Assembly (NCBI GenBank): GCA_947383945.1 | Contig: CANDFH010000005.1 | Location: 86,791-121,703, forward strand | DNA: 34,913 nt | Source of the DNA: an uncultured Lachnospiraceae bacterium | GTDB lineage: Bacteria; Bacillota; Clostridia; Lachnospirales; Lachnospiraceae | Reading direction: 5' to 3' | Shown here: positions 4,623 through 34,913 of the stretch, piece by piece | How positions within the stretch are numbered: position 1 is the stretch's first letter | How the letters are laid out: each line of letters starts with the position of its first letter | Notes under the pieces: generated by a model | The model's input: only the letters and a program-made list of their open reading frames with translations | Told to the model about the DNA's origin: nothing | Databases searched by the model: none | Translations under genes and position numbers: made by a program

Positions 4623-5049
4623 TGCCAGCACCTCCTTCTAAATCTTGGCGGGAAACGATCTTGCACTTTACTGGTAACTTGTGAGATGCAAGACGCAATG
4701 CCTCTTTTGCGATTTCTTCCGTCACGCCCGCGATCTCGAACATCACGCGGCCCGGCTTTACAACAGCCACCCAATATTCCAGAGAGCCTTTTCCAGAACC
4801 CATTCTGGTTTCTGCCGGCTTTGTTGTCACCGGCTTATCTGGGAAAATCTTAATCCAAACCTGGCCACCACGCTTGATATAACGTGTCATTGCAATACGA
4901 GCTGCCTCGATCTGATTTGACTTGATCCACGCTGGTTCCACTGCAATAATACCATACTCGCCGTTTGTGATCGTATTGCCTCTCATAGCTTTTCCTGCCA
5001 TACTGCCACGGAATTGCTTACGGCGCTTTACTCTTTTTGGCATTAACAT
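4609..5049 (-). CDS. rplP: 50S ribosomal protein L16
   Basis: 146 aa, [15 protein letters not shown]..., ATG at 5047-5049 overlapping the rpsC stop. Confidence 0.93.
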
Positions 5050-5747
5050 TATTTATCACTCCCTTCCTTTTTTGCTGCCTTTGTTGGAAGTACTTCACCG
5101 TGGTAAATCCAAACTTTAACGCCGATCTTACCATAGGTAGTGTCTGCCTCTGCAAATCCGTAATCGATATCTGCACGGAGAGTCTGAAGCGGAATCGTTC
5201 CCTCGTTGTAGAACTCAGTACGCGCCATATCCGCGCCGCCAAGACGACCGGAGCAGGATACTTTAATACCCTTTGCGCCGCTCTTCATTGTCCTGGACAT
5301 TGTAGATTTCATCGCACGGCGGAAGGAAACACGGTTCTCAAGCTGAGTCGCAATGTTCTCCGCAACAAGCTGTGCGTTTGCGTCCGGCTTTTTCACCTCT
5401 TTGATTTCAATATTAAGCTTCTTTTTTGTAAAGCGGGCAAGCTCACCCTTTAAAACTTCAATCTCAGCGCCGGCCTTGCCGATCACTACGCCTGGCTTCG
5501 CCGTATAAATAATGATCTTCATTTTGTCAGAAGCGCGCTCGATATCAATCTTTGAGATACTTGGGTCAATCTTGGCAGAACCGGATTTCGCGGTACCTGC
5601 AGCACTGTATGACCTCTCCTTCAGGAACTTCCTGATGTTGTAATCTTCTACCAAATTGTCTGCGAAATCAGCTTCTGCGTACCATCTGGAATTCCAGTCG
5701 CTGATTACGCCGACCCTCAAGCCATGAGGATTAACTTTTTGTCCCAT
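5049..5747 (-). CDS. rpsC: 30S ribosomal protein S3
   Basis: 232 aa, [15 protein letters not shown]..., classic S3 with KH domain. ATG at 5745-5747. Confidence 0.94.
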
Positions 5748-9644: not shown

Positions 9645-9944
9645 AAAAAAAGTCGCCTCCTTTTCGCACTTCATTGCAGTACGACAAGCGGTGACTGTAC
9701 ACTCACCCGTGTGTTTCGCACTTATCGAATCGAAGTGATTCCTTGGATGCTGTCTAAATTTCAGCAGACAGCACTTGGCTTCATCCCGAAAAAGCCGAGT
9801 CCACGGTTCTCTGCATAGCAGAATATTTATCTGTACAGTGACTTGTCGCCAGTTTTGATAACTTGACATTCGCTCCACGGAAAACCTGCCCTAAACAGGA
9901 CAGCAACCTCTCGCTTCTACGCTATCAACGTCACAACAGTTGGT

Positions 9945-27585: not shown

Positions 27586-27664
27586 AAAAAAATCACCTCA
27601 TAATCGCCCAATTATATTGAATCTTTTTCTTCTTTTTTAGTACTTATGCCCTAACTACTTTTTC

Positions 27665-27693
27665 AGTATATACCAAAACTATTGTATTGTCAA
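27665..27693 (-). promoter_or_regulatory. SigA-type promoter (-35 TTGACA, 17 nt, -10 TATACT) for the GH43 / solute-binding-protein / ABC operon
   Basis: Minus-strand read: TTGACA(27688-27693)-17nt-TATACT(27665-27670), about 75 nt upstream of the GH43 ATG. Confidence 0.6.
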
Positions 27694-27860
27694 TCGATTT
27701 ACCTTAATTTTTTTAGATTTCTTTCAGTAATTTTTCACAATACTTTATAAAAAATCACTGGTCAGGGCAAAAAACATACACAGCTCCCAAAGAAACCACA
27801 GTGGGAATCATACATATTTTCAAGGATTAAAACACTCTGAAAAAAACGCTTTATAATAAA

Positions 27861-27897
27861 AATCTGCGGATACTACTCAAACTTCTCAAAACCGCAG
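27861..27897 (-). terminator. terminator-like hairpin (7-bp stem, 21-nt loop, U-run)
   Basis: Minus read: TCTGCGG...CCGCAGA followed by TTTTTATT. Confidence 0.35.
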
Positions 27898-27932
27898 AGA
27901 TAAATTATTCTGTTGGAAGTATGTTCCTGCAC

Positions 27933-27963
27933 AGAAAAAAGAATCCTGCTTCACAGGATTCTT
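27933..27963 (-). terminator. canonical rho-independent terminator
   Basis: Minus read: AAGAATCCTG-TGAAG-CAGGATTCTT followed by TTTTTTCTGT. 10-bp stem, 5-nt loop, U6. Confidence 0.7.
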
Positions 27964-28009
27964 CGCCGCAGTGCATTTGTTTTATAGGACACAATTTCCT
28001 ATAAAATAA

Positions 28010-28110
28010 AAAAGCTGCCGCACAAAGAATGGCATACACAGAATTTTATAGATTGCATTAATACAAAATCCATACTCTGTATATCTTTCTCTTTGTGCGG
28101 CAGCTTTTAT
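28010..28110 (-). terminator. large 18-bp-stem hairpin with about 62-nt loop followed by U-run (complex terminator or structured RNA)
   Basis: AAAAGCTGCCGCACAAAG ... CTTTGTGCGGCAGCTTTT; the minus-strand read is followed by TTTTTTATTTTAT. Confidence 0.45.
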
Positions 28111-28355
28111 AATCAGCAGTCTGTTTTATAACAAAACACTCTTTCAAAATACTGTAGTACTACAGCAGACATTTGCTGCACTTTACAAGTTTTTCAAAAA
28201 GTCATAATATAGAATTTATAGAAATATAAATATTTATTTTTTAATAATTAAAATGCTAAATTTATATATTTCTTCTATAATATTTCTTTTTTAAAACAAT
28301 TTAAAAACAAAAACATGCAGACTGGTGTTTCATTTGGAAAACTGCTCTTAACTTC

Positions 28356-32572: not shown

Positions 32573-33610
32573 TTATCGCTTTGGCATCGGTTTTAAACAG
32601 AGCAGTGTTTGTCGGATTGCTTCTAACTGGCCGCGGACTGCTTTTGCATCTCCCCTCTTTAGTTTTTTCATTAAACTATCTTCTTTCCACTTAATATCCA
32701 TACTCCAAAAAGCATGAATGATCGCATACAGATAAGGGTACATTCGTTTTTGTTCTTCCGAAAACGGGCGTTCTTTGTTGTATCCTTCTAAAAATGCCGG
32801 AAGAATCACACTTTCTGGATCTTTGTATTCCTTTGGATACTCCATCAGCCTTGCCTGAAATACTGCTTGCATCACCGCATCACAATACAAATTGTTATCC
32901 CCACAGCGGTTAAAATCAAAAACTCCAAGATGCCCTTCTTTTGTCTGATACAAATTACAATCGCTGAAATCCCCCTGAACCGCATACCGCGGCTTACTTT
33001 TTAAAGGAGAAAGCACTTCCATGTATTCTTTATAAATTTTTGTAATATTTTCATACAAAGGCTGGTCAATCGCTAAAAACTCTTCTGCATGGGATAAAAA
33101 GTCCGTGTATGCAAACAAATCATTATCCGTAAACGGATCAAACAACACACTGTACTCTACATGAAATTGATTTGCTTCTGCAATATTATGTGTTTTTGCC
33201 AATAATTCACCCGCCTTTTTGGCAAGACAATCATCAATTTCTGAAAGTTCACCATCCACAAACTCCTCCACTGTTACAATCACAGAATATTTATCGATCC
33301 AATACCACTTTGCAAAATTCTGCCCTGTTTTATATAAGATTGGAGTATCAATTCCCGAATCTTTTAACAGCGCGGCAAACTGACTCTGTCTTTCAATCAA
33401 TTCTATAGACACATCAGGCTCATTTTTCAGCCGAACCACAACCGACGAGCCGTTTTGTAAATCCGCTTTTACAATAAGTCTTACTTCCCCAGACTCCAAA
33501 CCATCTTCCTTCGAATCATATCTTTGAAGTTCCGTATACGAAACTGCTTTGGAAGGAACATGATAATCCTTTAAAATTGCATCTATAGTACATAAAGAAA
33601 TCTCCAGCAT
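32573..33610 (-). CDS. APH/choline-kinase-fold phosphotransferase (putative sugar kinase) with non-canonical QGD catalytic loop
   Basis: 345 aa. Brenner-like motif VQGDFSDCNLY (Q in place of the usual H) and metal-binding GVFDFNRCGD. GGGAGGG RBS. First gene upstream of GH94. Confidence 0.65.
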   Translation of the reverse strand: MLEISLCTIDAILKDYHVPSKAVSYTELQRYDSKEDGLESGEVRLIVKADLQNGSSVVVRLKNEPDVSIELIERQSQFAALLKDSGIDTPILYKTGQNFAKWYWIDKYSVIVTVEEFVDGELSEIDDCLAKKAGELLAKTHNIAEANQFHVEYSVLFDPFTDNDLFAYTDFLSHAEEFLAIDQPLYENITKIYKEYMEVLSPLKSKPRYAVQGDFSDCNLYQTKEGHLGVFDFNRCGDNNLYCDAVMQAVFQARLMEYPKEYKDPESVILPAFLEGYNKERPFSEEQKRMYPYLYAIIHAFWSMDIKWKEDSLMKKLKRGDAKAVRGQLEAIRQTLLCLKPMPKR

Positions 33611-33717
33611 AAAAACCCTCCCAAATGTTTCGCACCTTGATTTTCTATGAATCTAACAAAAATAAGCAAAATTTTAATTTGATTGTAATATAGTGAATTA
33701 TTTTTATAAATTAAACT

Positions 33718-33747
33718 ATTATATACCGCATTTTATAGGCTTTTCAA
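33718..33747 (-). promoter_or_regulatory. SigA-type promoter (-35 TTGAAA, 18 nt, -10 TATAAT) for the kinase-GH94 operon
   Basis: Minus read: TTGAAA(33742-33747)-18nt-TATAAT(33718-33723), about 105 nt upstream of the kinase ATG. A tandem repeat lies immediately upstream. Confidence 0.5.
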
Positions 33748-33773
33748 AAGCTAGATATAATATCTATACACAA

Positions 33774-33844
33774 GTTACACTGTTCAAATATACTTTTCTA
33801 CAAGACATAAATTACACTGTTCAAATATACTTTTCTACAAGACA
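33774..33844. repeat. tandem direct repeat, two identical 33-nt units (period 37)
   Basis: TTACACTGTTCAAATATACTTTTCTACAAGACA occurs at 33775-33807 and 33812-33844, 27-97 bp upstream of the kinase promoter -35. Confidence 0.85.
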
Positions 33845-33967
33845 CAAATTATCAAAATATTCACTTTATTTCACTTAATTATAAACTTATTATTATATCA
33901 TATTATTTATGTTTTTTCAAGCAAAAAATGGTATCAATTTTTTTGAAAAAACAGCACCCTTTTTTGT

Positions 33968-33997
33968 TTGACAGAGTATTATTTTTTTTGATACAAT
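33968..33997 (+). promoter_or_regulatory. plus-strand SigA-type promoter (-35 TTGACA, 18 nt, -10 TACAAT), divergent from the kinase operon
   Basis: TTGACA(33968-33973)-18nt-TACAAT(33992-33997). It would give a ~310-nt leader before the 34318 ORF. Confidence 0.5.
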
Positions 33998-34317
33998 AAC
34001 AGCACAAGTTACAGTACAAAAGAAACTTGTTTTGTAGATAACTTGTTTGTATTTTGGAGCATTGGAACTGACATAATAAGTCTGGTTCGTCCAATGCCTG
34101 AACCCAATCTGCGCGCGGCGCGGGCAAATAACTACCATAAACAGAGCAGCCAAGCAGAATAAATACAAGGTCAAGATGCTTATACGGAATGTAATAGTTG
34201 GTATTAAAGATAAGGTCTTGCAACACGCTTGGCTGGGGTAGGGAGGAAAAGAGGGTTGAAGGGATACGAAAAATATTTTAAACTTAAACACCAAAATTAA
34301 AAAGGAGGTCAACTGAC

Positions 34318-34908
34318 ATGCCAAACAATCTTTTTAAACTACGAACTTTAAAGAAACTTATGGCTGGAATACTGACAATATTTTTATGTATGTCAAAAAT
34401 TCCAGTAGCAGTATTAGCTAATAACACTTTACCAGATTATACTGACACAGGAATTAGAATCGTTAAAGATAATGAAGTTGAATTAGTAGAACAACTGATA
34501 AATGAAAAATATATTTTATATTCCGAACTTTTATCTACAGAAGATGAAAATAAAAAGAACGATTTACAAAAAAGATATACTATAATATGTCAGAAACTGC
34601 AAAAACTTGGAGTAAGTGAAGAGCTCCTTGAGGATATTCCATTAATAAATAATCCTGAATTTGCTCCTTACGCCACTCTTCCTAGTTTTGAAGCACTGGA
34701 GCAATTGTTTAAGTTTGATACATTCTATCAATACGGCTATGTTGGGTCAACCGTTTACAAATTTTATAATGTACTGGTTCATGATAAAAATGGAAGTAAA
34801 TTACATAGCACAAAAAAAGACAGTATTATTTTATGCGGCTCTTTATCAAATGTAAATCAACGTGAGTTCGATGAGCATACTTATGCAAAAGTCATATTTC
34901 CAGTATGA
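34318..34908 (+). CDS. hypothetical secreted/membrane-anchored protein in AT-rich island
   Basis: 196 aa. AAAGGAGGT RBS 9 nt upstream. N-terminal hydrophobic segment LMAGILTIFLCMSKIPVAVLA. Very AT-rich codon usage unlike its neighbours. No recognisable domain. Confidence 0.55.
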   Translation: MPNNLFKLRTLKKLMAGILTIFLCMSKIPVAVLANNTLPDYTDTGIRIVKDNEVELVEQLINEKYILYSELLSTEDENKKNDLQKRYTIICQKLQKLGVSEELLEDIPLINNPEFAPYATLPSFEALEQLFKFDTFYQYGYVGSTVYKFYNVLVHDKNGSKLHSTKKDSIILCGSLSNVNQREFDEHTYAKVIFPV

Positions 34909-34913
34909 ATTGA

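What the first reader, a model, noticed from the sequence alone, without database searches (positions are those of the whole stretch)
33611..34913. Visibly AT-rich island with divergent promoter, G-tract-rich structured leader and an orphan secreted protein
From 33611 onward the base composition looks markedly more AT-rich than the rest of the window. The plus-strand promoter (33968-33997) would produce a ~310-nt leader. That leader contains an 8-bp stem (GCATTGGA / TCCAATGC, ~34059-34102), a GCGCGCGGCGCGGG block, and four G-tracts (34235-34238, 34241-34243, 34253-34255, 34261-34263), which is G-quadruplex-capable. These precede a 196-aa signal-peptide protein with no recognisable domain.

The island sits where the conserved glycan locus ends. 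Compositional mismatch suggests horizontal acquisition, and the leader could be a riboswitch or sRNA-like regulator.
Basis: partly seen in the sequence, partly recalled or inferred. Interest (0 to 1): 0.5.

Follow-up and report, generated by a model that had tools for sequence, protein, structure and literature searches.

The report
IS-truncated secreted-protein gene with long leader
The AT-rich end of this window is the start of a foreign-looking gene block in a gut Lachnospiraceae bacterium; its "orphan 196-aa protein" is the front half of a 358-aa secreted protein cut by an IS982 jumping gene, and the long leader is a variable, probably hairpin-forming 5' UTR, not a known riboswitch or a conserved G-quadruplex.

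Summary
The sequence features are all at the stated coordinates, and the region is AT-rich. GC is 0.30 for both the intergenic region and the ORF, against 0.45 for the window.

- **The ORF is not a complete orphan gene.** Codons 1-181 are 98-100% identical to intact 358-aa proteins. From base 34860 the sequence is the left end of a 1,006-bp IS982-family element with a 15-bp inverted repeat and a 7-bp target duplication (TAAATCA). That element supplies the last 15 codons and the stop.
- **The window ends 54 nt into this repeat,** which is an assembly break. The gene's other half lies on separate contigs from the same samples.
- **The AT-rich block continues about 4-10 kb further** and is missing next to the GH94 gene of a sister lineage. 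Horizontal acquisition is therefore plausible.
- **The ~313-nt leader matches no Rfam family** and is not found upstream of distant homologues. It is the most polymorphic segment of the locus.
- **The G-tracts are broken in 2 of 5 full-length alleles,** which argues against a functional G-quadruplex.
- **Substitutions do avoid breaking the predicted plus-strand helices** (P≈0.02). This is modest support for a structured 5' UTR of unknown role.

Overall this is ordinary, with a small open question about the leader.

The parts
32573..33610 (-). APH-like (phosphotransferase-family) kinase gene, 345 aa. It is the first low-GC gene of the block (GC 0.38, GC3 0.34) and is transcribed divergently from gene A.
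   Evidence: Pfam PF01636, E=7.5e-8. Composition. It is present next to gene A in all 'context i' strains. It was not found in the GTDB species-representative genomes.
33611..33997 (.). AT-rich (GC 0.22) divergent promoter region
   Evidence: Composition. Promoter-like sites on both strands.
33768..33841 (.). Tandem duplication of a 37-nt unit (2 copies, 95% identical). Only one copy is present in every other allele.
33910..33953 (.). AT-rich inverted repeat (TGTTTTTTCAA...TTGAAAAAACA). In some strains, homology to this locus begins at 33932, with phage-like genes to the left of that point. Part of the sequence (CAAGCAAAAAATGGTATC) resembles a large palindrome upstream of the distant homologue in L017.
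33968..33997 (+). Sigma-70/SigA-type promoter-like site: TTGACA, 18-nt spacer, TG-n-TACAAT. It is identical in all five alleles and is retained next to the mobile-element junction.
   Evidence: Use of this promoter is inferred, not shown.
33998..34317 (+). Predicted ~313-nt 5' UTR of gene A (GC 0.40). Predicted helices:
- 33999-34011 / 34039-34050
- 34015-34021 / 34030-34036
- 34059-34066 / 34090-34097
- 34108-34114 / 34118-34124
- 34132-34136 / 34237-34241
- 34147-34155 / 34227-34235
- 34170-34183 / 34210-34221

Other features are the purine/G-rich block at 34235-34264 and the SD AAGGAGG at 34302-34308.
   Evidence: Folds. No Rfam match. Polymorphism. Structure-preservation test.
34318..34859 (+). 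5' part (codons 1-181) of gene A. Gene A encodes a 358-aa secreted protein of a rare, unannotated family. Residues 1-34 are the signal peptide, ending VLA|NN.
   Evidence: Rejoining it with L035:1015-1549 gives an intact 358-codon ORF whose protein is identical to P0007.
34853..34859 (.). Left copy of the 7-bp target-site duplication TAAATCA.
   Evidence: Window sequence, compared with the right junction ...CTCACGT|TAAATCA|GGTTAAAC in L035/L031 and with the uninterrupted allele.
34860..34913 (.). First 54 nt of an IS982-family insertion sequence. The terminal inverted repeat ACGTGAGTTCGATGA lies at 34860-34874. This stretch encodes the last 15 codons (REFDEHTYAKVIFPV) and the stop codon (34906-34908) of the 196-aa ORF. 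The contig ends here because the IS is a repeat.
   Evidence: Read-through contigs L005 and L035. The transposase matches NF033520 at 234.9 bits against a cut-off of 130. Most contigs carrying this ORF end at the same base. blastn shows 100% identity over 55 nt.

Best explanation
**What the region is.** The region is the left edge of a low-GC, probably horizontally acquired gene block in an uncultured gut Lachnospiraceae bacterium. A SigA-type promoter (33968-33997) should drive 'gene A' through a ~313-nt 5' UTR and a strong ribosome-binding site. Gene A normally encodes a 358-aa Sec-exported protein of a very small family with no known domain. It is followed by a conserved ~190-aa membrane-anchored partner, 'gene B'.

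**What happened in this strain.** A 1,006-bp IS982-family element transposed into codon 181 of gene A and duplicated TAAATCA.
- The annotated 196-aa ORF is therefore 181 native codons plus 15 IS-encoded codons and an IS-encoded stop. It is most likely a null or truncated allele.
- The assembler broke the contig 54 nt into this multi-copy element. That is why the window ends there.

**The leader.**
- It is a lineage-specific 5' UTR and a recombination mosaic.
- It probably folds into several hairpins that influence mRNA stability or translation.
- It is not a member of any described RNA family.
- Its G-tracts are not conserved.

**Shown versus inferred.**
- Shown: the IS insertion and truncation, the assembly break, the composition, the lack of Rfam or homologue conservation, and the allele polymorphism.
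- Inferred: promoter use, export of the protein, loss of function, a polar effect on gene B, and any regulatory role of the leader.
For: **Truncation by IS982**
- An exhaustive HMMER search finds 358/359/350/339-aa relatives. P0001 is 98% identical over residues 1-182.
- The DNA alignment shows identity up to ...AATGTAAATCA and then divergence.
- L005 and L035 read through a 297-aa transposase that matches NF033520 (IS982) at 234.9 bits. The element has 15-bp inverted repeats and a 7-bp target duplication.
- The C-terminal fragment P0008 lies on contigs from the same samples that begin inside the IS.
- The rejoined halves give 358 codons, identical to the commonest allele, P0007.
- dN/dS of 0.13-0.39 shows that gene A is a real gene.

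**Assembly break**
- Eight of the ten displayed contigs (of 21 that carry this ORF) end at the same base.

**Island**
- GC and GC3 values support it.
- A sister lineage lacks the block.
- IS elements and phage-like genes sit at its edges.

**Leader**
- No Rfam hit.
- The covariance model and nhmmer find no counterpart upstream of homologues.
- It has 13 variable columns per 100 nt, against 1-3 in the flanking genes.
- The G4 motif is absent from the L011, L028 and L029 alleles.
- Substitutions break fewer plus-strand pairs than random placement does: 4 observed against 8.0 expected, P=0.02. The minus strand gives P=0.10.
Against: - No expression data exist, so the promoter, the transcription start and the 5' UTR length are predictions only.
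- The structural signal in the leader is modest. The covariation score is reached by 49 of 500 shuffles. Only 5 closely related, recombining alleles are available. The minus strand folds with an even lower z-score (-3.4).
- Absence of the island from the sister lineage rests on a GH94 gene that is only 83% identical in DNA. Orthology of the flanking PGA_cap genes was not demonstrated.
- One contig (L005) joins the same IS to a different right flank, next to a tRNA. I read this as another IS copy (2 SNPs) or a chimeric assembly, but a rearranged sub-population is not excluded.
Confidence: 0.85

Rival explanations
1. The leader is a genuine, lineage-specific structured cis-regulatory RNA. It could be ligand-, protein-, temperature- or ribosome-sensing, for example a STAB-SD-like stabiliser. 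Its helices would be maintained by selection while its sequence turns over.
For: - The leader has GC 0.40, embedded in intergenic DNA of GC 0.22.
- Fold z-scores are -1.8 and -2.1 for two alleles.
- With the window-only MFE structure, 28 polymorphic sites break only 4 pairs (8.0 expected, P=0.02) and 5 cells (16.2 expected, P=0.003). The minus strand does not show this.
- Two pairs follow a G-C / G-U / A-U path: 34000-34049 and 34059-34097.
- Every allele keeps at least one GGAGG in the purine block, although its position shifts by 8 nt.
- STAB-SD elements are documented in Gram-positive 5' UTRs (PMC12970973, citing Agaisse & Lereclus 1996).
- The L017 homologue also has a ~225-nt leader, with z=-2.5.
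Against: - There is no Rfam family, no terminator, and no predicted SD-sequestering helix.
- No sequence or structure counterpart exists upstream of the other family members. L018 has only an ~80-nt leader and L016 has z=-0.2.
- Covariation is not significant in the shuffle control.
- The alleles are few, related and recombinant, so the cell counts are not independent.
- GGAGG is expected by chance in so G/A-rich a stretch.
Confidence: 0.25
2. The four G-tracts at 34235-34263 form an RNA (or DNA) G-quadruplex that regulates gene A.
For: It is the only G3+N1-12 motif on either strand of the 35-kb window. It is unlikely by chance within the leader alone (P=0.011). It is retained in 3 of 5 alleles: window, L020 and L023.
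Against: - It requires a 9-nt loop. No motif exists with loops of 7 nt or less.
- One motif per window equals the shuffle expectation of 1.35.
- Two tracts are destroyed in the L011, L028 and L029 alleles, whose gene A is intact (GGGG to GTGG, GGG to GGC).
- This is the most variable part of the leader.
- The tracts are predicted to pair with C-rich segments at 34098-34105 and 34132-34136.
Confidence: 0.03
3. The hairpin-forming sequences act at the DNA level, as operators or recombination sites, or they belong to an antisense RNA from the minus strand rather than to a plus-strand leader.
For: - The minus strand folds with the better z-score, -3.4.
- ACAAGTTA/TAACTTGT half-sites recur at 33770, 34004, 34024 and 34039.
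- A mobile-element junction and a palindrome lie just upstream of the promoter.
Against: - Polymorphisms are tolerated as G-U wobbles only on the plus strand. On the minus strand 9 pairs are broken (P=0.10).
- No minus-strand promoter or terminator was found within 34000-34320.
- No regulator gene is adjacent.
Confidence: 0.1
4. The 196-aa ORF is a complete, bona fide orphan secreted protein.
For: It has a good SD, an ATG, a signal peptide and a stop codon, and gene callers annotate it.
Against: - Its last 15 codons and its stop lie inside the IS982 inverted-repeat end.
- Intact 358-aa alleles are identical up to codon 181.
- The missing half is found on the other side of the IS.
Confidence: 0.01

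Closest known systems
IS982-family insertion sequences (DDE transposase, about 1 kb, single ORF)
   Same: - The transposase scores 234.9 bits against NCBIfam NF033520, whose cut-off is 130.
- The element is 1,006 bp with one 297-aa ORF.
- It has perfect 15-bp terminal inverted repeats starting with AC.
- It made a 7-bp target duplication in an AT-rich target.
- It is multi-copy, and assemblies break at it.
   Different: - The closest annotated DNA matches in PLSDB are only 63-74% identical, from cyanobacteria, Prevotella and Cardinium. It is therefore an undescribed member.
- Only its first 54 nt lie within the window.
Long structured 5' UTRs / STAB-SD-type mRNA stabilisers of Gram-positive secreted or toxin genes (e.g. 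B. thuringiensis cry3Aa)
   Same: - A distant promoter and a leader of several hundred nucleotides.
- An SD-like GGAGG about 70 nt upstream of the real SD, in every allele.
- A hairpin close to the predicted 5' end.
   Different: - No experimental evidence of processing or stabilisation.
- The SD-like motif shifts position between alleles and is expected by chance in the purine-rich block.
- No sequence similarity to any described element.
Riboswitches and other Rfam cis-regulatory leaders
   Same: The position (5' UTR), the length and the multi-helix predicted fold.
   Different: - No covariance-model match, even at E<=10.
- No expression platform.
- Not conserved upstream of homologous genes.
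- It is the most polymorphic part of the locus rather than the most conserved.
Small AT-rich genomic islets of ORFan surface or secreted proteins in gut Firmicutes
   Same: - Low GC and GC3 relative to the host genes.
- ORFan content: gene A, gene B, a 639-aa lipoprotein-like protein and a 232-aa protein.
- Flanked or invaded by IS elements and phage-like DNA.
- Elevated polymorphism and recombination mosaics.
- Recurrent inactivation.
   Different: - No integrase or direct-repeat boundaries were identified.
- Absence from a sister lineage is only loosely established.

Membership tests
IS982-family insertion sequence | DDE transposase matching the family model above its curated cut-off | tested here: met
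   NF033520 scores 234.9 bits against a cut-off of 130. Pfam domains DDE_Tnp_1 and DDE_Tnp_1_3 are present. The transposase is on the read-through contigs L005 and L035, not inside the window.
IS982-family insertion sequence | About 1 kb long, one ORF, terminal inverted repeats | tested here: met
   The element is 1,006 bp (L035 2-1007). The inverted repeat ACGTGAGTTCGATGA is 15/15.
IS982-family insertion sequence | Target-site duplication flanking a simple insertion, and an empty site in other strains | tested here: met
   TAAATCA is present on both sides. It occurs once in the intact alleles. The rejoined gene is intact.
IS982-family insertion sequence | The window's terminal bases belong to the element | tested here: met
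   Window 34859-34913 is 100% identical to the IS end.
Riboswitch / Rfam cis-regulatory RNA | Match to a curated covariance model | tested here: not met
   No hit at gathering threshold. Only chance-level hits at E between 1.4 and 10 to eukaryotic and viral families.
Riboswitch / Rfam cis-regulatory RNA | Conserved upstream of homologous genes in other lineages | tested here: not met
   nhmmer, blastn and a covariance model of 34052-34250 find nothing upstream of the homologues in L016-L019.
Riboswitch / Rfam cis-regulatory RNA | Covariation-supported secondary structure | tested here: inconclusive
   - 98.9% of cells are paired and 3 pairs have two-sided changes.
- Shuffles reach the covariation score 49 times in 500.
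- The placement test gives P=0.02 on the plus strand.
Riboswitch / Rfam cis-regulatory RNA | Expression platform (intrinsic terminator or SD-sequestering helix) | tested here: not met
   There are 0 terminator-like sites. The SD at 34302-34308 is unpaired in the MFE and consensus folds.
RNA G-quadruplex | Four G3+ tracts with short loops | tested here: inconclusive
   The motif is present only if a 9-nt loop is allowed. There is none with loops of 7 nt or less.
RNA G-quadruplex | Tracts conserved among alleles of the same leader | tested here: not met
   The motif is lost in the L011, L028 and L029 alleles.
RNA G-quadruplex | K+-dependent folding | not testable with these tools
   This needs CD, an RT-stop assay or a fluorescence assay.
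Sec-exported protein (type I signal peptide) | N-terminal basic n-region, hydrophobic h-region and a small-x-small cleavage site | tested here: inconclusive
   - Read directly from the sequence: MPNNLFKLRTLKK / LMAGILTIFLCMSKIPVAVLA | NN.
- The same layout occurs in the homologues P0002 and P0004 and in the L018 gene.
- AF2 predicts a helix at residues 2-24.
- No dedicated signal-peptide predictor was available.
Horizontally acquired genomic island | Base composition and codon third positions deviating from the host genes | tested here: met
   - Gene A has GC3 0.18-0.29 in all hosts, against 0.43-0.55 for the window's other genes and 0.57-0.67 for the L018 flanks.
- The block continues with GC 0.30-0.36 for about 4 kb.
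Horizontally acquired genomic island | Absent from the same site in related genomes | tested here: inconclusive
   - In the sister lineage (L037-L040, including GCA_949420475.1), GH94 is adjacent to PGA_cap with no APH-to-RR block.
- Only GH94 aligns, at 83%.
- PGA_cap orthology is unproven.
- ORF196 and APH were not found in the GTDB representative genomes.
Horizontally acquired genomic island | Mobility genes or att/tRNA boundaries | tested here: inconclusive
   - IS982 is present here.
- An IS630-like element lies between genes A and B in L015.
- A phage-like block abuts at 33932 in L020-type strains.
- No integrase or boundary repeats were found.
- The tRNA adjacency is seen only in the probably chimeric L005.

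The most novel reading that the evidence does not exclude
The ~270-nt variable part of the leader would be an undescribed, lineage-restricted structured RNA. Its helices would be kept by selection while at least two deep haplotype blocks recombine independently of the coding sequence. This would tune expression of a hypervariable, repeatedly inactivated secreted-protein/anchor cassette (genes A and B) that moves between Lachnospiraceae genomes. In other words, it would be a new regulatory RNA attached to a new mobile surface-protein module.
Probability: 0.15. Interest if true: 0.5.

Novelty: new member of a known kind. Interest (0 to 1): 0.25.

Why it matters
**Annotation quality.**
- An 'orphan secreted protein' at a contig end turns out to be an IS-truncated pseudogene. 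The apparent end of the locus is an assembly break at a repeat.
- Such fragments inflate ORFan counts in metagenome catalogues.

**Biology.**
- The locus shows a rare two-gene cassette (a ~350-aa secreted protein and a ~190-aa anchored protein) in gut Lachnospiraceae.
- The cassette is AT-rich in every host and highly polymorphic.
- It has been disrupted independently at least three times, twice within gene A and once by an insertion between genes A and B: by IS982 here, by a nonsense mutation (with or without a frameshift) in L018/L019, and by an IS630-like insertion between the two genes in L015.
- This pattern is typical of surface or antagonism factors under fluctuating selection.

**The leader.** It is a modest candidate for a new structured 5' UTR. 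The evidence is too thin to rank it highly.

Tried and rejected
**Searches that found nothing**
- Rfam at gathering threshold and at E<=10: nothing in the region.
- Word-indexed protein search with the 196-aa ORF: nothing, even though close relatives exist. That index missed them.
- GTDB genome scans with ORF196 and with APH: nothing.
- Viral contigs, phage records and plasmid records: nothing relevant.
- Pfam, NCBIfam, PHROGs and PADLOC on gene A and its neighbours: no family.
- AlphaFold2 model of P0001: low confidence (pLDDT 58). Foldseek against PDB and an HMM search against PDB sequences gave nothing better than E about 0.2. The afdb50 library was unavailable.

**Ideas considered and rejected**
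- Covariance model of the leader core: it finds only its own alleles. A 17-bit hit at L031 9406-9500 was inspected and judged to be a generic two-hairpin match.
- Invertible promoter: the 9-nt inverted repeat TTCCGTATA/TATACGGAA (33530 and 34181) is lost in the L011 allele, and no recombinase is nearby.
- DGR-type hypermutation of the leader: the substitutions are not adenine-specific, and no reverse transcriptase is present.
- Small ORFs in the leader (14, 21 and 22 codons): they are not preserved between alleles, being disrupted by indels or lacking a consistent SD spacing.
- The tRNA flank in L005 as the true right side of the insertion: rejected, because L031-L036 carry the gene's 3' half with the target duplication.
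Full report
**1. Observation**

- TTGACA 33968-73, an 18-nt spacer, then TG-n-TACAAT 33992-97. This scores 11/12 and is the best plus-strand site.
- The 8-bp stem GCATTGGA 34059-66 / TCCAATGC 34090-97.
- GCGCGCGGCGCGGG at 34111-24.
- G-tracts at 34235-38, 34241-43, 34253-55 and 34261-63.
- SD AAGGAGG at 34302-08, nine bases before the ATG of a 196-codon ORF (34318-34908).

Composition:
- The window averages GC 0.447. Region 33611-34317 is 0.30, and the ORF is 0.30 with GC3 0.20. The other genes have GC3 of about 0.43-0.55.
- The intergenic AT-richness is normal for this genome. The other long spacers are 0.25-0.29.
- The drop in GC starts earlier, in the APH-like gene (0.38).
- The leader (0.40) is actually GC-richer than the promoter region (0.22).

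Chance levels:
- An 8-bp stem in 320 nt has P=0.16 by dinucleotide shuffles.
- The G4 motif needs a 9-nt loop. One such motif in 35 kb equals the shuffle expectation of 1.35, though within the leader alone P=0.011.

**2. The ORF is a truncated gene and the window ends in a repeat**

- A look-up of the exact protein found 21 metagenome contigs. Eight of the ten displayed stop at the same base, 5 nt after the stop codon.
- Contig L005 reads on into a 297-aa DDE transposase on the opposite strand. It scores 234.9 bits against the NCBIfam IS982 model, whose cut-off is 130.
- The word-indexed protein search found no homologue. The exhaustive HMMER search found five cluster representatives. Four of them are 339-359 aa long. 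P0001 is 98% identical to ORF196 over residues 1-182 and then continues for another 176 residues.
- DNA alignment with the contigs that encode P0001 shows identity up to ...AATGTAAATCA and then complete divergence.
- Contigs carrying a 125-aa C-terminal fragment (P0008) come from the same samples. They begin inside the IS or, in L035, contain the whole IS. The junction reads ...CTCACGT|TAAATCA|GGTTAAAC....
- The element is therefore 1,006 bp, has perfect 15-bp inverted repeats (ACGTGAGTTCGATGA), starts at window 34860, and duplicated TAAATCA (34853-34859).
- Rejoining the two halves gives an intact 358-codon gene. Its protein is identical to P0007, the commonest allele. The insertion is therefore recent.
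- ORF196 is 181 native codons plus 15 IS-encoded codons (REFDEHTYAKVIFPV) and an IS-encoded stop.
- The window's last 54-55 nt are the k-mer-length overlap into a multi-copy repeat.
- L005's different right flank is AT-rich spacer followed by a tRNA (Rfam, 36.8 bits). Its IS differs by 2 SNPs. I read it as another IS copy or an assembly chimera.

**3. Gene A and its neighbourhood**

- The family has only five clusters at 50% identity among 1.84 billion representatives.
- It has no Pfam, NCBIfam, PHROG or PADLOC match.
- There is no PDB sequence hit. The structure model is low-confidence (pLDDT 58) and has no Foldseek neighbour.
- All members that have an N-terminus begin with a signal-peptide-like segment.
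- dN/dS between alleles is 0.13-0.39, so it is a real gene under constraint.
- A ~190-208-aa protein with an N-terminal membrane anchor follows gene A in L013, L018, L020-L036 and L015. I call it gene B.
- Gene A or the A-B cassette has been disrupted repeatedly, twice within gene A and once by an insertion between the two genes:
  - By IS982 here.
  - By an in-frame TGA at codon 88 in L018, and the same stop plus a frameshift in L019.
  - By an IS630-like element between genes A and B in L015.
- Proteins in the same 90% clusters as the window's GH94 and 477-aa genes are named as coming from 'Lachnospiraceae bacterium' and 'Acetatifactor sp.' MAGs. An S10-Clostridia leader lies at 9843-9927.

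**4. Island**

- Gene A is AT-rich in every context (GC 0.30-0.37, GC3 0.18-0.29), including L018, whose flanks are 0.52-0.55.
- Beyond the IS, the block continues with the gene A 3' half, gene B, a 639-aa lipoprotein-like ORFan and a 232-aa ORFan (GC 0.30-0.36). An ABC-transporter/two-component module follows (0.37-0.43). GC then returns to 0.48 at a PGA_cap gene.
- In a sister lineage the GH94 protein falls in the same 90% cluster and its DNA is 83% identical. There, GH94 sits divergently next to a PGA_cap gene with none of these genes between them. Orthology of the two PGA_cap genes could not be shown from the 118 residues available.
- In some strains (L020, L022, L024), phage-like genes replace everything to the left of window position 33932, which is 36 nt upstream of the -35 element. 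These genes match PHROG families for a methyltransferase, a PAPS reductase and a DNA-binding protein.
- Horizontal acquisition is thus well supported for gene A and plausible for the roughly 12-kb block.

**5. The leader**

*Known families.* There is no Rfam hit at gathering threshold. At E<=10 there are only chance matches to eukaryotic and viral families. There is no intrinsic terminator.

*Folding.* The z-score is -1.8 for the window and -2.1 for the L011 allele on the plus strand, and -3.4 on the minus strand.

*Conservation in other family members.* The upstream regions of distant family members share nothing with it:
- L018/L019 have an ~80-nt leader.
- L017 has an unrelated ~225-nt leader with z=-2.5.
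- L016's upstream region has z=-0.2.
- A covariance model of 34052-34250 finds only its own alleles.

*Polymorphism.* Five full-length alleles of this leader were recovered: window, L011, L020, L023 and L028.
- The segment 33998-34267 is the most polymorphic of the locus, with 13 variable columns per 100 nt. The values are 1.8 for APH, 2.6 for GH94 and 6.5 for gene A.
- The last 50 nt of the leader are invariant.
- Window and L023 have identical gene A sequences (0 differences in 1,077 nt) but differ at about 15 leader positions.
- L028 combines an L011-like 3' block with a P0007-like coding sequence.
- The variation is therefore a recombination mosaic, not local hypermutation. The substitutions are not adenine-biased.

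*G-tracts.* They are broken in L011, L028 and L029 (GGGG to GTGG, GGG to GGC). They are also predicted to pair with C-rich segments.

*Support for structure.*
- Using the MFE fold of the window sequence alone, the 28 substituted columns break only 4 pairs (8.0 expected under random placement of the same changes, P=0.02). They break 5 cells (16.2 expected, P=0.003).
- The minus-strand control gives 9 broken pairs against 12.1 expected (P=0.10).
- Two pairs show G-C / G-U / A-U series: 34000-34049 and 34059-34097.
- The shuffle control on covariation is not significant, at 49 of 500. The alleles are few and related.

*SD-like motif.* Every allele keeps at least one GGAGG in the purine block. It is at 34242-46 in window and L020, at 34250-54 in L011 and L028, and at both positions in L023. 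This recalls STAB-SD stabilisers (PMC12970973). However, such a motif is expected by chance in so G/A-rich a stretch.

**6. Mechanism**

Shown:
- The IS982 insertion, with its target duplication.
- The truncation and chimeric C-terminus of the ORF.
- The assembly break.
- The low-GC block.
- The polymorphic leader that matches no known family.

Inferred:
- Transcription from the promoter at 33968-33997, which is identical in all alleles and is retained next to the phage-like junction.
- A ~313-nt 5' UTR whose hairpins modulate stability or translation.
- Sec export of the product.
- Loss of function of gene A in this strain, and a possible polar effect on gene B.

**7. Verdict**

- The finding is largely explained by ordinary phenomena: an IS-disrupted gene at a contig end inside an AT-rich accessory block.
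- The G-quadruplex and riboswitch readings are not supported.
- A weak case remains for a lineage-specific structured 5' UTR attached to a rare, hypervariable secreted-protein cassette.

Noticed in passing
window 9843-9927 (-): An S10-Clostridia ribosomal-protein leader (RF03136, 84.2 bits) lies upstream of the ribosomal protein operon. It places the organism in the class Clostridia.
   Followed up: no
window 27586-28355: A second long AT-rich spacer (770 bp, GC 0.29) lies upstream of a 477-aa gene with no Pfam or NCBIfam match. It was not examined for RNA elements beyond the whole-window Rfam scan.
   Followed up: no
window 33768-33841: A 37-nt unit is tandemly duplicated only in the window-type strain. 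All four other alleles have a single copy. It lies between the two minus-strand promoter-like sites of the APH gene.
   Followed up: partly
window 33910-33953; L017 2085-2135; L020 ~5640-5690: An AT-rich inverted repeat lies just upstream of the gene A promoter. L020-type strains switch to phage-like DNA exactly inside it, at window 33932. Part of it (CAAGCAAAAAATGGTATC) resembles a perfect 20-bp-arm palindrome upstream of the distant homologue in L017 (nhmmer E=2e-5 in a tiny database). It may be a recombination or attachment site, or an operator.
   Followed up: partly
L018 4974-6029; L019 ~4733-5735; L015 1290-2556: Other members of the gene A family are also disrupted. L018 has an in-frame TGA at codon 88. 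L019 has the same stop plus a frameshift and a small duplication. In L015 an IS630-like element (HTH_29 + DDE_3) sits between genes A and B.
   Followed up: partly
L011 2790-3326 versus window strain (L035 1015-1549): The C-terminal half of gene A in the L011 allele is much more divergent (dS 0.25, 62 differences) than the N-terminal half (dS 0.027). This is a recombination mosaic within the coding sequence. Gene B is also hypervariable, with 8.6 variable columns per 100 nt.
   Followed up: partly
L005 5404-5932: One low-coverage contig joins the gene A 5' half, through an IS982 copy that differs by 2 SNPs, to an AT-rich spacer and the 3' part of a tRNA (Rfam, 36.8 bits; the anticodon loop reads CTT, Lys, by eye). 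There is no target duplication. It is probably another IS copy or an assembly chimera.
   Followed up: partly
L031 713-9527: Downstream of the IS the block holds gene B (188 aa), a 639-aa protein with a lipobox-like TYGC motif, and 232-aa and 194-aa ORFans, none with a Pfam or PADLOC hit. An ABC transporter with a histidine kinase/response regulator module follows on the opposite strand.
   Followed up: partly
L037-L040 8221-12397 (includes GCA_949420475.1 CASPCM010000007.1): In the most abundant sister lineage, GH94 is divergently adjacent to a PGA_cap gene. On its other side it is flanked by SocA_Panacea and arabinofuranosidase genes, plus a type II restriction-modification system. The neighbourhood of GH94 therefore varies on both sides.
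   Followed up: partly
L031 9406-9500 (-): There is a weak 17-bit match of the leader covariance model within or upstream of a 55-aa ORF that precedes the response-regulator operon. It consists of two generic hairpins and an AAAUAAC stretch. It was judged to be chance.
   Followed up: yes
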